From Hormiphora californensis (lineage: Eukaryota > Animalia > Ctenophora): DNA of 64,000 nt. The position numbers and the translations under genes were made by a program. The stretch is taken from the NCBI GenBank assembly GCA_020137815.1, contig CM035359.1:4092001-4156000 (forward strand), given 5' to 3'. Under the pieces are notes generated by a model. That model did no database searches. It was not told the origin of the DNA and saw nothing but the letters and a program-made list of their open reading frames with translations. Positions 5,716 to 54,454 of the stretch are shown piece by piece (position 1 is the first letter of the stretch; the number at the start of each line of letters is the position of its first letter).

Positions 5716-5973
5716 AGGATTGATGAGGAATCTCACTACTACGACCATGAAAAAGACGAAGACGATAGAGAGGAGAGCGAGAGTAGGAGAGCAGGATACG
5801 ACGCGAGAGACCGAGCAGGAGATAGAGCAGTAGATCGAGCTCTCATTCGCGCAGCATTTTTAGAGAGCAAGCTCTGCTCAAATAACGTGGAGCGTTCAGT
5901 CAGACTAGCCGAGCGACTAGCGAGACTACGACAGATCATAGGCGCTTCGCGCACGGCCTCTCTGCTGATTCGA
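5716..5973 (+). CDS. Candidate coding exon (module A, exon 1), possibly an alternative K2P N-terminus
   Basis: Stop-free frame RIDEESHYYDHEK...RLARLRQIIGASRTASLLIR then gtatct; start not resolved (no in-frame Met, stops upstream). Confidence 0.4.
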
Positions 5974-6092
5974 GTATCTCTCTCTCTCTCTCTTCTCTCT
6001 CTCTCTCTCTCTCTCTCTCTCCCTCTCTCTCTCCTCTCTCTCTCTCTCTCTCTCTCTCTCTCTCTCTCTCCTCTCTCTCTCTCTTCCCACAG

Positions 6093-6145
6093 GATCGGGG
6101 AAGCACTTCAAGAAGAGAAACCAGATCTGCACTTTTCTCCGATGG
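6093..6145 (+). CDS. Candidate coding exon (module A, exon 2)
   Basis: cccacag|DRGSTSRRETRSALFSD-gg|gtgaga; phase 0 in, phase 2 out, fits 14195. Confidence 0.45.
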
Positions 6146-6449
6146 GTGAGATGGCTTTTGATTCTTGTAATTGTCTCAGAATATGATAATATATCGTATC
6201 ATATGTCTCTCATTCAGCTACAATCATGTCTATTGTTGTTTTGGTTTGTTTGTTTGTTTGTTTGTTATAGACGTCTTAGGAACCTGGGATACTGAGTTCT
6301 CTCCCTCATCTTGGTCTACTCTGATTGTTTTGTTTCTAAGCCCTAATTTTGTACATGTATGTAAATGAATAGGATTATTACCACTTCATGGTTACTAACT
6401 ATTGACTAAGCTATGCGTAGAGTTTGCATTTACCTTGACTTTCCTATTA

Positions 6450-6622
6450 CAGTCGAACCCCCGATTTACCGGGATGCTCGGGGGAAAGGGTTTTGACCGG
6501 TAAATCGGGGTGCCCGGTATATCGGGGTCAATTACCGTTAATATCCTATATCGGGGGAATTTTATCCTCCCGGTAAATCGGAGTTCCGGTTAATCGGGGC
6601 CCGGTAAATCGGGGTCGGACTG
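6450..6622. mobile_element. Tc1/mariner/pogo-type MITE (CAGTCG termini, TA TSD)
   Basis: TA|CAGTCGAACCCCCGATTTACCGGG...CCGGTAAATCGGGGTCGGACTG|TA; relatives at ~60807-60978 and ~40746-40816. Confidence 0.85.
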
Positions 6623-6642
6623 TATAGCTGTAATAGCTGTAC

Positions 6643-6912
6643 TAGTGTCTGACTGTGGTCTGGAATCCCCCTACTGCACGGAGCTTTTCTGAATCACATT
6701 TTCGAGACGAATCCAACGCAACCGGAATTAGCTTTCTATCTTATCGGGAAGTTTGGGCTTCAGCATCTTCATTTTTGGTCATTTTTCGGTGCGCGAGCCA
6801 ATCAGAGGCCTTTATTTCGAAATCCAGGCCTCTGATTGGCTCGCACACCGAAAAATGACCAAAAATGAAAGCTCCGTGCAGTAGGGGGTTTCCAGACCAC
6901 AGTCAGACACTA
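6643..6912. mobile_element. hAT-type MITE
   Basis: ~45-bp TIR TAGTGTCTGACTGTGGTCTGGAA...; perfect 8-bp TSD AGCTGTAC (6635-6642, 6913-6920). Confidence 0.9.
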
Positions 6913-7814
6913 AGCTGTACTTAAATGAGGGTCACTATAATATAAGTGGGCACATCACCCCTACATCAACTCTTTAATGACAACAGGGTACTTTTATTTG
7001 CTAAGTAGTATCATACTTACCAGCTCTAGTATATTGGGGGGGGGGTGCATATTTGTGATGAGCTTTTACATGAAGGTTTTAAACTTCTTTTTAGTAGGTA
7101 CATATCATCTCTATAATTATAAGTTGGAGATGAACGACGTTAGTAGCCGACAGGGGCCTGTCAGAGCATTGGCCTGACCATATTCTCAGAACTGTGGTCA
7201 GAGCATTGGCCTGACAGACAGGGGCTCTACTTGAAAGTTGAAGGGTTCCCTAGTTGCTTATACAGGGTGTGAACTGCATGTCGTGTTTGCTAGTCGCGAG
7301 CGCGCTTGCGAGACAAGCAAACACGTCAAGGTTCATTAACAAGCATGCTGCTCAGTCATTTTAGATTTAATACACAATGTAAGGATATCATGTAATAGGT
7401 GAGACTCTTGCCGTCACCCTCGTTCAAGTCCCGTGAAAAACGGAGCAGTACACGCAAACTGATGCCCATTTTCCTCGCGTGACCCCGATTCAGCAGTTTG
7501 AGACACCAACTCTTTAGGGGGCCATATCTCAGGAACCAGACAAGATAGGAAAAATCGCCGTCTAATGAGGCGTACAGTTTTTAATCTAGTTTACCACTGT
7601 ACCGGCCGTTTCACTCTCCGACCTAAAACAAAAATCGCAACCCCACAAAACTTCAAAATAATGAAATTCGCATCTCGCATGTCGTGTTGCATGTCGTGTC
7701 ATGTTATTGACGCGCTCGCGTTCAACTCTCACACAGCAGCTGCAGAACGTGGCGGAAACATCGAGGAGTAGAGAGAGGGTCGGTGCCGAATCAAATATTT
7801 CTTGATCTTGATCT

Positions 7815-51414: not shown

Positions 51415-51496
51415 CTATAAATAGAAGCTTTAAACACTTTTTCTGACACTCCCTATAGGGAGTGTCAAAAAAAGTGTTTAAAGCTTCTATTTATAG
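51415..51496. repeat. 82-bp near-perfect spacerless palindrome
   Basis: Centre CCCTA|TAGGG; one mismatch; adjacent to a short direct duplication at ~51350-51428. Confidence 0.9.
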
Positions 51497-51710
51497 CCAA
51501 TTATAATCTTTACTTTTCACAGTCCTGAGCAATATTTGATTATTAGTGTCCTCTCTACACTCTACAGCTTGGTCCTTATATTATATTTCCGTGGTATAAG
51601 ATTCTATCTATCTACGGAGTGCCTGGGCTTGCCAACGGCAAGCCCACAGGGGACTATCGCAAAGCGATATCGCCGGCACTAGGAGTGGTATAAGATTGTT
51701 CATTATATTT

Positions 51711-51791
51711 ATGGAGCACCGTGGTGGGTCATCCAGGATGGAGGACCAGGATCAGGAGGAGAACCCTCGATTTAGGATGGGCGATGATCAG
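51711..51791 (+). CDS. Candidate alternative first coding exon G of the K2P gene
   Basis: MEHRGGSSRMEDQDQEENPRFRMGDDQ|gtaatt; GC-rich island in AT-rich DNA; CAG|GTAATT donor, phase 0. Confidence 0.5.
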
Positions 51792-53091
51792 GTAATTGGA
51801 CAAGATTCTTTCAGGCCAATGCTCTGACCACAGTTCTCGTGCGGTCCGCGATTATTTGAAAGACATGAGAAAAGGGTCAGGCCAATGCTCTGACAGGACA
51901 ATATATAGAGTCTGTCTTTACATATTCGGAGTTGGACTCATGTTCCAACTCATATGAACCTAGAACAAGAACATAATATGTATGATAATCGTGCCAAAAT
52001 TGAATATTTATTCACAGCTCTACAGTTTTATGAAAAATCCCAAAATAATAAAATATTATCTTTTTGATCTATCGAGAGAAGACAGAATATAATACATATG
52101 GAAAGAAGATACTAAAAAGAAGGAAGATCTTTACCAGGAAGGCGACATGAAAAGTTATATTGTATTGTCATTTCACGTTGTACATTTTGGCATGACGAAA
52201 TAACATCTAATACACTATAGTACTCGATCTTTAATTTATCATGATGTCTTTTACCTAGTCACACATAGTTTGTCGTAAACATGAATCATAGCATACATAT
52301 GAATCATACCATATTGTATGAAGATGCAGTTGCTTTGGGACAAAATTCTGCCTAGTCATACGAAAACTCAGGGCTCTATTTATATATGATCGGTATATTC
52401 TTTAATTACCCAAATGTTATCTTGGGGATTTTTTATTATCACATCATGTGCGTCGTGCATAATCTTCAATTATGTCACAGTTGACCACGTGGTATTTATT
52501 TTGCCGTTACATCGCAAATCTCCGTGGTAACTCTCACAATTCCGATTCCGGAACACCCCGCGATCCGCTCTATGCCGGCAACACCCGGCTCCTCCTCCTA
52601 GGGGCTTCTCGTCCTCTCTCTCTCGAGCTTTCTTCTCGCCTCTCTCTCTCCTCTCTCGCTCTCTCTCTCTGCTCGCTCTCTCTCTATTTCGATCACCCCT
52701 CGTTGCTTTCTATCATTCGAGTATTCCTTTAAATTCTCTCTCCCTCTCTGTATTTCTACCACTATATTTAACTTTCTCTCCCGTCGGAATACCGAGAATG
52801 GAGCTTTCACGCTCACGCTCTCGCTCGCGCGCGAGCACGCGCCGCTCTCTCTCCACTCTCGCTCTCGCTCTCTCGTCTCACTGCTCTCTCCTCTGCTCAC
52901 TCTCGCAGCTCCTCTCACCTCAACCTCACTCTCTCTCACTCTCTCTCTCTCTCTCACTCTCTCTCTATCTCTCTATCTCTCTCTCTCTCTATCTCTCTCT
53001 GGATCTCACTCTTCCCAATCCAACGCACTGTATGCAGTAGCGGGGAGAAAGATTGCTCCGCATTTCTTTGTGCTGTGCCCAATTCATAATA

Positions 53092-53895
53092 ATGAGTTTG
53101 CCCCGTCACGGCGATCTTCACCAGCAGCAGCCTATGACTGATGGTGGAGGAGAGTCACGTTGTCATGGAAACGGTCAACATGCCGGACATGAAGGAGGAG
53201 GAGGAACGCAGCATGGACCGTGTTGTACCCAGTGTTGTAACGGTGGTAACCATGGTGTAGATGGTAGCAACCATGGAGGAGTTGGTAACCATGGTAACCG
53301 CGGTGGTAACCGTGGTTTAGATAGTGATCCACCTAGTTACACCTGGGATTACTTCACCGACACCATCCCACGAAACACTCCCCTGTTATCGGGGTTAGCT
53401 GGCGATCTCACCGACTCCCCCTCGGCCCCAGTTTGTACACCTACCACGCCACTAGGAGCCCACAAGCAGGGATGGAGCAACAACAATCACCCTACACCAC
53501 CGGTGTCCAGGTCTGGGTATAGCAGCCGGCCCCCTGTAGTCCCGCCTAGATCTAGACACCGCGGTGATACCTCTGTCACCGCTGCACACCGAGGTAATAC
53601 CTCTGACACCTCCAGACACCGTGGGGGATATCAAGCCCTTTTAGATCAGGATGGATCAAGTCAGGATATCCCGGTAAAATCTGCCATCCGCAGCTCCACA
53701 GATGCCGATAGTCAACCTACTGACTCTGCACCAGCTGTTGGGGGTTGGGGAGTGGTGCGGAATGAATCAGGTGTCCACCAGAGATCCATTCTCCGTGGTC
53801 TTCTCAGCAGAGCGGGGGCAGCCGGGTCTAGTGGAGCAGCTACCAGGGATAGGCAACGTGATGGCCGAGACGCGGGACACGGCCACGACCCATTG
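53092..53895 (+). CDS. Proximal N-terminal coding exon H of the K2P gene (long disordered G/P/S-rich region)
   Basis: 268 codons MSLPRHGD...GHGHDPL|gtatgt; phase 0; could also be entered at the AG ending 53040. Confidence 0.7.
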
Positions 53896-54296
53896 GTATG
53901 TGTTTAATTTCATGTTGAGTTGCCTCACAGTACACGCTAAATTAATCATTAATCATTTCGGGCTTTGTTCTTTACTAAATATGCAGTTTGTTCTTTATTA
54001 CAGTTTGTCTTGTCTTTCTTGATACATTTGGCAGTGTGATCTTCTGTATTAATAGTATATCTGTTATCTCCCACCAGCTGCTTAGAAATAACCGGTCTGT
54101 TTATGAGAAAAACTTTAGTAAAATTGGAAATCGACTAAACACTAAAATTAAATACAAATTTTGTAGGCCCTGCTATTCCTGAAACCCCATTCCCGTTCAT
54201 ACCATAATCCCATTCCCAAGCACTACCATCTCCACTCTCCAACCTGACAACAATCAACTTAATTGAACTATTAATTAACAAAATATTTAATTTCAG

Positions 54297-54454
54297 GGTC
54301 GAGGGATGCCTCCAATTTTTGGGTTTTTTGGAAAAGTAACCGCTAAAGGACGGAAAGCACTCCTCAACTCTATAGTCCTTCTCTTCCTGAATATTGTTTT
54401 CATCACAAGTGGAGCTCTTATTATCTCACGGATTGAGAATGATTATAATCTAAA
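54297..54454 (+). CDS. Two-pore-domain K+ channel (K2P/KCNK family), M1 exon
   Basis: tttcag|GRGMPPIFGFFGKVTAKGRKALLNSIVLLFLNIVFITSGALIISRIENDYNL|gtaagt; hydrophobic helix ending in the K2P-like GAxxxxxxE. Confidence 0.85.

What the first reader, a model, noticed from the sequence alone, without database searches (positions are those of the whole stretch)
5716..54454. K2P channel with a ~48-kb cluster of candidate interchangeable N-terminal exons (variable-first-exon / constant-core locus)
Seen: eight unrelated, protein-like modules (A 5716-14447 in three exons, B 37517, C 39639, D 40881, E 46897, F 48366, G 51711, H 53092) each end in a GT donor in phase 0, the phase required by the M1 exon at 54297. 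Most start at their own ATG, and the nearby upstream acceptors of B, C, E and F are out of phase with a phase-0 donor, so they do not chain simply as internal exons. Several carry different basophilic kinase sites (RRAS, KRAS, RRLS) or W-anchored basic helices (E). Known: protocadherin, UGT1A and plectin loci use variable first exons on a constant region; vertebrate K2Ps have only a few N-terminal variants. Inference: promoter choice may diversify one leak channel across cell types. Caveat: I looked for phase-0 donors, so selection bias is possible.
Basis: partly seen in the sequence, partly recalled or inferred. Interest (0 to 1): 0.8.

Follow-up and report, generated by a model that had tools for sequence, protein, structure and literature searches.

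The report
Comb-jelly leak channel, many front ends
A comb-jelly gene for a leak potassium channel has a row of unrelated short coding starts in front of one constant channel body, two of these pieces match the same channel in other comb jellies (ten different front ends are annotated in one species), so one gene likely makes many versions of the channel, likely by using different promoters.

Summary
Largely real, with a corrected layout. A ctenophore K2P channel core (54297-61738, 355 aa) is 59% identical to Bolinopsis LOC134822051, whose 10 RefSeq isoforms differ only at the N-terminus. Six of them join through one shared 11-codon exon, one starts inside it, three join the core directly. Module E is conserved and joins the core directly in three other ctenophore records. 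Contig-derived proteins from other runs repeat two Bolinopsis N-termini. B, C, F, G and H have no significant homologue but are GC-rich, unrelated, mostly well-scoring phase-0 starts without a good acceptor, and exceed chance (6 long frames against 0.6 expected). A is weak: its first exon fails at both splice sites; only its last exon is plausible. No RNA junction was seen in this species (runs too shallow), and promoters are untested. Variable first exons on a constant core are known (KChIP, DPP6/10, twk-40 with three); the number and two-tier layout in a K2P were not found in print. The scan noted a similar Shaker gene in this genome.

The parts
14223..14447 (+). Module A, last exon: candidate 75-codon coding start (exon 14195-14447); membership uncertain
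   Evidence: acceptor 8.4 bits, donor 10.5 bits, phase 0, GC 0.56; ATG position read from the sequence; no homologue
5716..5973 (+).
   Evidence: acceptor -13.0 bits, donor -1.6 bits, no in-frame ATG; no Pfam or Atlas hit
6093..6145 (+).
   Evidence: acceptor 12.7 bits, donor 4.6 bits
37517..37636 (+). Module B: candidate first coding exon, upstream tier (13 or 40 codons; two donors, 37555 and 37636)
   Evidence: GC 0.53; match to Bolinopsis X4 not significant
39639..39836 (+). Module C: candidate first coding exon, upstream tier (66 codons)
   Evidence: donor 8.1 bits, no acceptor above 2.8 bits, GC 0.52; no homologue
40878..40910 (+). Module D: conserved 33-nt internal micro-exon (IMNRIRLKWNS), phase 0 at both ends; its Met can also serve as a start
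   Evidence: acceptor 11.1, donor 8.1 bits; 8 of 10 residues identical to Bolinopsis X9, E=1.6e-6; internal in Bolinopsis X1, X3-X7, Mnemiopsis P0052, P0069, L001
46897..47169 (+). Module E: conserved first coding exon, direct tier (91 codons; two Arg-Trp basic helices predicted)
   Evidence: tblastn E=2e-9 to Bolinopsis X2, 2e-6 to Mnemiopsis P0070, 6e-6 to P0053; all three join the core without D; helices in the orthologue model
48366..48545 (+). Module F: candidate first coding exon, direct tier (60 codons)
   Evidence: donor 6.2 bits, GC 0.46; no homologue
51711..51791 (+). Module G: candidate first coding exon, direct tier (27 codons)
   Evidence: donor 8.6 bits, GC 0.57; weak match to the N-terminus of P0075 (p=0.006 uncorrected among 120 tests)
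53092..53895 (+). Module H: candidate first coding exon, direct tier (268 codons, low complexity)
   Evidence: donor 9.6 bits, GC 0.56, longest open frame listed in 30500-54300; no homologue; no RNA cover
54297..54454 (+). Constant exon 1 (M1 helix), common phase-0 acceptor
   Evidence: 63-69% identical to Bolinopsis and Mnemiopsis orthologues; acceptor 10.6 bits
57924..59638 (+). Constant exons 57924-58033, 58115-58255, 58366-58547, 58771-58851, 59232-59379, 59578-59638 (cap, P1, M2, M3, P2, M4)
   Evidence: open chain aligning with orthologues; Pfam Ion_trans_2 at both pore regions
61023..61738 (+). Constant C-terminal exons 61023-61144 and 61673-61738 (stop)
   Evidence: open chain; matches the Bolinopsis C-terminus, p=0.0005

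Best explanation
This is a ctenophore K2P potassium-channel gene in which a row of unrelated coding starts lies upstream of one constant channel body, and each start is likely a separate first exon, likely with its own promoter, that gives the channel a different cytoplasmic N-terminus. The layout has two tiers. Starts upstream of the 33-nt micro-exon D (B, C, perhaps the last exon of A) are inferred to splice to D and then to the M1 exon, so they all carry D's conserved basic motif next to M1. Starts downstream of D (E, F, G, H) can only splice straight to the M1 exon and lack it. Pore, cap and C-terminus stay the same, so isoforms would differ in sorting, partner binding or modulation rather than in the pore. 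Shown: the sequence anatomy, conservation of D and E, and the two-tier joins in relatives' proteins. Inferred: splicing of any module in this species, promoters, cell-type use, function of the N-termini.
For: Orthologue with 10 named RefSeq isoforms (10 of 11 cluster members) that share the core and differ at the N-terminus: 6 via the D-type exon, 1 starting in it, 3 direct. Mnemiopsis has a D-type and an E-type form among 3. Proteins on short intron-free contigs of other runs repeat the X5-type start plus D (P0069) and the X8-type start (P0073); L001 shows a further start before D; P0053 is E-type; P0009, P0056 and P0075 have other direct starts. E is never preceded by D in its 3 relatives. 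Phase-0 excess over chance. No acceptor above 2.8 bits within 40 nt of the ATG of B, C, E, F, G, H. Between 30500 and 54296 only D and a 21-nt candidate at 48290 combine an acceptor of 8 bits or more with a donor of 8 bits or more in an open phase-0 exon.
Against: No junction was seen in this species: 0 of 4 runs covered the M1 exon or H beyond repeats, although run X1 holds spliced contigs of the neighbouring ISWI gene at depth 11-14. B, C, F, G, H and A have no significant homologue, and 8 of the 9 Bolinopsis variable starts other than D itself (all but X2) have no match in the window. RefSeq isoforms are automatic models, and I saw only their proteins, not their exon coordinates. The chance test also returns two non-module frames, and the splice matrices rest on 12 and 13-14 sites. 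The tree does not resolve orthology; it rests on 59% identity and shared D and E.
Confidence: 0.78

Rival explanations
1. Same protein isoforms, but the choice is made by spliced-leader trans-splicing: one or a few upstream promoters make a long precursor, and adding the leader at an acceptor in front of a module turns that module into the first exon.
For: Leaders were on 56% of Iso-Seq reads in the ctenophore Hormiphora (PMC8527503, passages). Acceptors of 8.9-9.7 bits lie 76 nt upstream of F, about 760 nt upstream of G and about 1.5 kb upstream of B.
Against: C, E and H have no acceptor of 6 bits or more within 450 nt upstream. These acceptors fit untranslated exons equally well. (CT)n tracts precede 4 of 6 modules within 1 kb (P=0.04, thresholds chosen after looking), a weak hint of separate start regions.
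Confidence: 0.08
2. Only D and E (and perhaps one or two more) are used; the other modules are chance frames, decayed exons or pieces of nested genes.
For: No homologue for A, B, C, F, H and only a weak one for G; no RNA cover of H; nested genes are common in Hormiphora (PMC8527503); two non-module frames pass the same filter.
Against: D needs upstream phase-0 donors, and its orthologue has at least six. The variable starts differ even between Bolinopsis and Mnemiopsis, so lack of homology is expected. C, F, H lie in a class with 0.6 expected by chance, have coding-like GC, and no downstream exon set of another gene was found on this strand.
Confidence: 0.11
3. The modules are ordinary internal exons joined in series into one long N-terminus.
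For: All exits share phase 0, and D is in fact internal.
Against: B, C, E, F, G lack a phase-0 acceptor above 2.8 bits in their open frames; H has one of 5.6 bits inside it. In relatives E-type starts are never preceded by D, and no isoform holds two variable modules.
Confidence: 0.03

Closest known systems
Bolinopsis microptera LOC134822051, RefSeq isoforms X1-X10 (XP_063688961-72), and Mnemiopsis leidyi ACHWQZ_G001413 (automatic annotations)
   Same: Same channel subfamily and likely orthologue (59-60% core identity), same junction before the M1 exon, same D micro-exon and E-type start, same two-tier layout.
   Different: Only database entries; I found no paper describing them. Apart from D and E the starts are not alignable with the window's.
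C. elegans twk-40 (PMC9049526, passages)
   Same: A K2P gene with isoforms a, b, c from separate first exons on a common channel region; its promoters label mostly different neurons.
   Different: Three isoforms, against about 6-7 candidates here and 10 annotated in Bolinopsis; no shared micro-exon tier seen in the passages read; cDNAs of a and b rescued alike, which suggests expression control more than protein difference.
KChIP1-4 and DPP6/DPP10 (PMC3973911, passages)
   Same: Alternative promoters and first exons put unrelated N-termini on a constant core, with 1-2 alternative 5' exons in KChIPs, cell-type-specific use and effects on trafficking and gating.
   Different: Auxiliary subunits of vertebrate Kv4 channels, not pore subunits; 4-5 variants per DPP gene.
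TREK-1/TREK-2 N-terminal variants (PMC8396510, passages)
   Same: K2P N-termini varied by splicing and by alternative translation start; the latter sets single-channel conductance.
   Different: Few, short variants; no array of unrelated exons reported in the passage read.
Clustered protocadherins, UGT1A, plectin, PDE4D (recalled, not read)
   Same: Variable first exons spliced to a constant region; plectin and PDE4D have unrelated starts, some joining at different points.
   Different: Protocadherin and UGT1A variable exons are duplicated homologues that carry whole domains; these modules are unrelated, short and mostly disordered-looking.

Membership tests
K2P (KCNK) potassium channels | Two pore domains per subunit | tested here: met
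   Pfam Ion_trans_2 on exons 58362-58544 (E 4.9e-8) and 59247-59378 (E 1e-7), weaker on 58114-58254
K2P (KCNK) potassium channels | K+ filter signatures in both pore loops | tested here: met
   TIGYG and TVGLG in the spliced core
K2P (KCNK) potassium channels | Four membrane helices with cap helices after M1 | tested here: met
   Tested on the Bolinopsis orthologue, not on the window's protein: model has M1, two cap helices, pore helices, M2-M4 (mean pLDDT 61); all listed top fold hits are K2P structures; best solved relatives TREK-1/-2, E 3e-18
K2P (KCNK) potassium channels | Dimeric, K+-selective background current | not testable with these tools
   needs expression and recording
Variable-first-exon / constant-core locus (KChIP, DPP6/10, twk-40 type) | Several 5' coding exons in the phase of the constant exon | tested here: met
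Variable-first-exon / constant-core locus (KChIP, DPP6/10, twk-40 type) | Each 5' exon is spliced on its own to the core in mRNA | tested here: inconclusive
   met in relatives for D-linked, E-type, X5-type and X8-type forms; no cover in this species
Variable-first-exon / constant-core locus (KChIP, DPP6/10, twk-40 type) | A promoter for each first exon, used by different cells | not testable with these tools
   only contigs were offered; they show no start sites
Clustered protocadherin / UGT1A type | Variable exons are tandem duplicates of one domain-coding exon | tested here: not met
   no pair of modules related (best of 28 pairs p=0.02 uncorrected; no self-hits)

The most novel reading that the evidence does not exclude
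Comb jellies multiply their potassium-channel types by arrays of fast-changing first exons with a built-in two-tier code: a deeply conserved micro-exon (D) stamps a basic sorting or gating motif onto every upstream isoform and is absent from every downstream one, so choosing the start site sets both the tail and a binary regulatory state of a leak channel. With the Shaker gene noted elsewhere in this genome, this would be a lineage-wide, independently evolved way to tune excitability by cell type.
Probability: 0.3. Interest if true: 0.78.

Novelty: new variant of a known kind. Interest (0 to 1): 0.57.

Why it matters
Ctenophores may have built their nervous and ciliary control systems independently, and their channel diversity is counted by genes (over 40 Shaker genes in Mnemiopsis, PMC11287247). 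A K2P gene with up to ten N-termini, two parts of which are conserved between this species and lobate ctenophores, means gene counts and 3'-end single-cell data miss a layer of diversity. It also gives a direct test: one pore with and without an 11-residue conserved motif, and with or without a conserved two-helix start.

Tried and rejected
No whole genome was held. The run search gave 4 rows, none above 0.06 of the words. Laying them on 53015-54905 gave only repeat matches; on 280-5970 it showed spliced ISWI contigs in X1 (near-identical) and X4 (a diverged relative) but no cover of 5600-5970; depth is too low for absence to count. A 23-nt pattern from the M1 exon found 0 metagenome contigs; the alignment scan found 2 loci of 226 candidates, of which L002 lacks the N-terminus. 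Homologue search with the P1-M2 exon found 0 of 13 candidates; with the M1 exon 3 of 27, all already known. Pfam found nothing for A1, A3, C, E, F, H or the M1 exon; the Atlas gave no usable hit for A1 or E. Matches of B to Bolinopsis X4 (E 0.33) and of 32831 to X7 (E 0.03-0.04, runs into a stop) were rejected as chance. An open frame at 54812-54903 could not be joined between the first two core exons. The 3' 15-mer of the Hormiphora leader has no match with up to 2 mismatches in the window. The tree left the window's core in an unresolved ctenophore group. The bacterial promoter scan does not apply. No complex prediction was run: no candidate partner sequence was in hand. P0059 (genomic read-through) and the non-ctenophore K2P hits were left out of the N-terminus count.
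Full report
Setting. No genome was held. The window is from a ctenophore: the best named homologues are Bolinopsis and Mnemiopsis proteins, and a repeat read into the end of a Pleurobrachia bachei gene model (P0027) occurs 5 times in the window at 85-95% identity, which points to Pleurobrachia or a close relative. 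An ISWI-like remodeller gene (name recalled from its sequence) ends near 2012; 7.3-12.6 kb is a foldback with satellite arrays and about 14.7-30.5 kb is mostly repeats.

The constant part. Nine exons from 54297 to 61738 give an open 355-residue chain with two Ion_trans_2 matches and TIGYG/TVGLG filters. It is 59% identical to Bolinopsis LOC134822051, 60% to Mnemiopsis ACHWQZ_G001413 and 37-41% to other ctenophore K2Ps. A model of the Bolinopsis protein has the K2P helix order and finds only K2P structures among its listed top hits. The tree does not resolve orthology; I infer it from identity and from the shared D and E segments.

The observation. All nine named donors are GT, and B-H are open from ATG to donor in phase 0. 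The modules are single-copy, GC-rich and unrelated. None has a membrane-spanning stretch. Module A does not hold as drawn: exon 5716-5973 has no ATG and fails at both splice sites. Its last exon has good sites and an ATG at 14223, 75 codons before the donor, so it may be a far upstream start that reaches D across 26 kb, or belong elsewhere.

What relatives show. The cluster of the Bolinopsis orthologue has 11 members, 10 of them RefSeq isoforms X1-X10 with the same core and different N-termini. X1 and X3-X7 have six unrelated starts followed by IMTRIRLKWNT; X9 begins at the Met of that segment; X2, X8 and X10 join the core directly. The shared segment is module D (8 of 10 identical, E=1.6e-6), and in the window D has an 11.1-bit phase-0 acceptor three bases before its ATG. 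X2, Mnemiopsis P0070 and contig protein P0053 begin with a module-E homologue (E 2e-9 to 6e-6) joined straight to the core. Support independent of RefSeq comes from short contigs whose length leaves no room for introns, so they likely derive from spliced RNA: P0069 (X5-type start plus D, 409 aa on 1292 nt), P0073 (X8-type, direct), L001 (a further start plus D), P0009, P0056 and P0075 (other direct starts). Against: of the window's modules only D and E match significantly; G matches P0075 weakly (p=0.006 among 120 tests), and A, B, C, F, H match nothing. I saw proteins only, so 'first exon' in Bolinopsis is inferred.

RNA of this species. Four runs were offered. None covered the M1 exon or H. 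X1 does hold the organism at low depth, with three GT-AG joints in the ISWI gene, which checks three of the introns used for the splice matrices but is too shallow to test a channel gene. No junction of this locus was seen.

Mechanism. Position fixes the tiers: B, C and possibly A lie upstream of D and would splice to it; E, F, G, H lie downstream and cannot. This matches the relatives, where E-type forms never carry D. None of B, C, E, F, G, H has an acceptor above 2.8 bits within 40 nt of its ATG, as expected for first exons. Separate promoters are the simplest cause, as shown for twk-40 and KChIP/DPP genes (PMC9049526, PMC3973911; passages), but leader trans-splicing is common in ctenophores (PMC8527503; passages) and could make the same isoforms. 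The function of the starts is inference. D places a conserved RxRxKW motif just before M1; Arg-x-Arg and dibasic motifs act as ER-sorting signals in other K+ channels (recalled), and a basic stretch could also bind lipid. E is predicted as two helices (residues 36-50 and 61-86 of X2, pLDDT about 50-75), each with a conserved Arg-Trp, a pattern that resembles calmodulin-binding helices (recalled, untested). In TREK channels the N-terminus affects conductance (PMC8396510; passage).

Novelty. The design is known, and the Bolinopsis isoforms already stand in an automatic annotation. Ten full-text searches found no paper on this gene or on first-exon arrays in ctenophore channels; the library lacks most subscription journals and I read no supplements, where isoform tables could exist. 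For six papers I saw passages only; others only as listings. An earlier scan note (e1-10648812) reports the same layout for a Shaker gene in this genome; I did not test it. I lack a base rate for multi-start genes in ctenophores, which limits the surprise. Verdict: real, new variant of a known kind, interest 0.57.

Noticed in passing
window 48290-48310: 21-nt micro-exon candidate with strong sites (acceptor 9.7, donor 10.8 bits), open only in phase 0/0; may be a second cassette like D after E, or an untranslated exon of F.
   Followed up: partly
window 60036-60320: A 94-codon open frame, GC 0.47, in the right phase after the M4 exon, could be an alternative last exon; its acceptor scores only 0.8 bits and its likeness to the conserved C-terminus is not significant (p=0.3).
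   Followed up: partly
window 32725-32742 and 40598-40615: Two further 6-codon ATG-to-donor starts in phase 0 upstream of D (6.5 and 6.9 bits); relatives have starts of 3-4 residues, but such short frames also arise by chance.
   Followed up: no
window 31856, 35658, 39030, 47329, 50713, 52614-53012: (CT)n tracts on the sense strand precede most modules (4 of 6 within 1 kb, P=0.04 post hoc); others follow donors. Possible promoter or 5' UTR feature.
   Followed up: partly
window 7262-12639: Foldback element with 497-nt perfect arms around inverted 32-bp satellite arrays and a telomere-like CCCTAA run near 11100, inside A's intron.
   Followed up: no
window 55714-57028 and about 48740-50310: Long near-perfect inverted repeats in the first core intron (619-nt arms, 99%) and, by eye, between F and G; they could fold in the pre-mRNA.
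   Followed up: no
window 2601-2701 and 5216-5370: Exon-like pieces with strong acceptors (12.5 and 10.3 bits) upstream of A; possible untranslated exons of the most upstream start or parts of another gene. No RNA cover in the shallow runs.
   Followed up: partly
window 54812-54903: Protein-like open frame after an AG and before a CT tract in the first core intron; cannot be joined in frame between the first two core exons.
   Followed up: partly
window 518-2012: 3' end of an ISWI-like chromatin remodeller gene (name recalled); three introns confirmed by contigs of run X1.
   Followed up: yes
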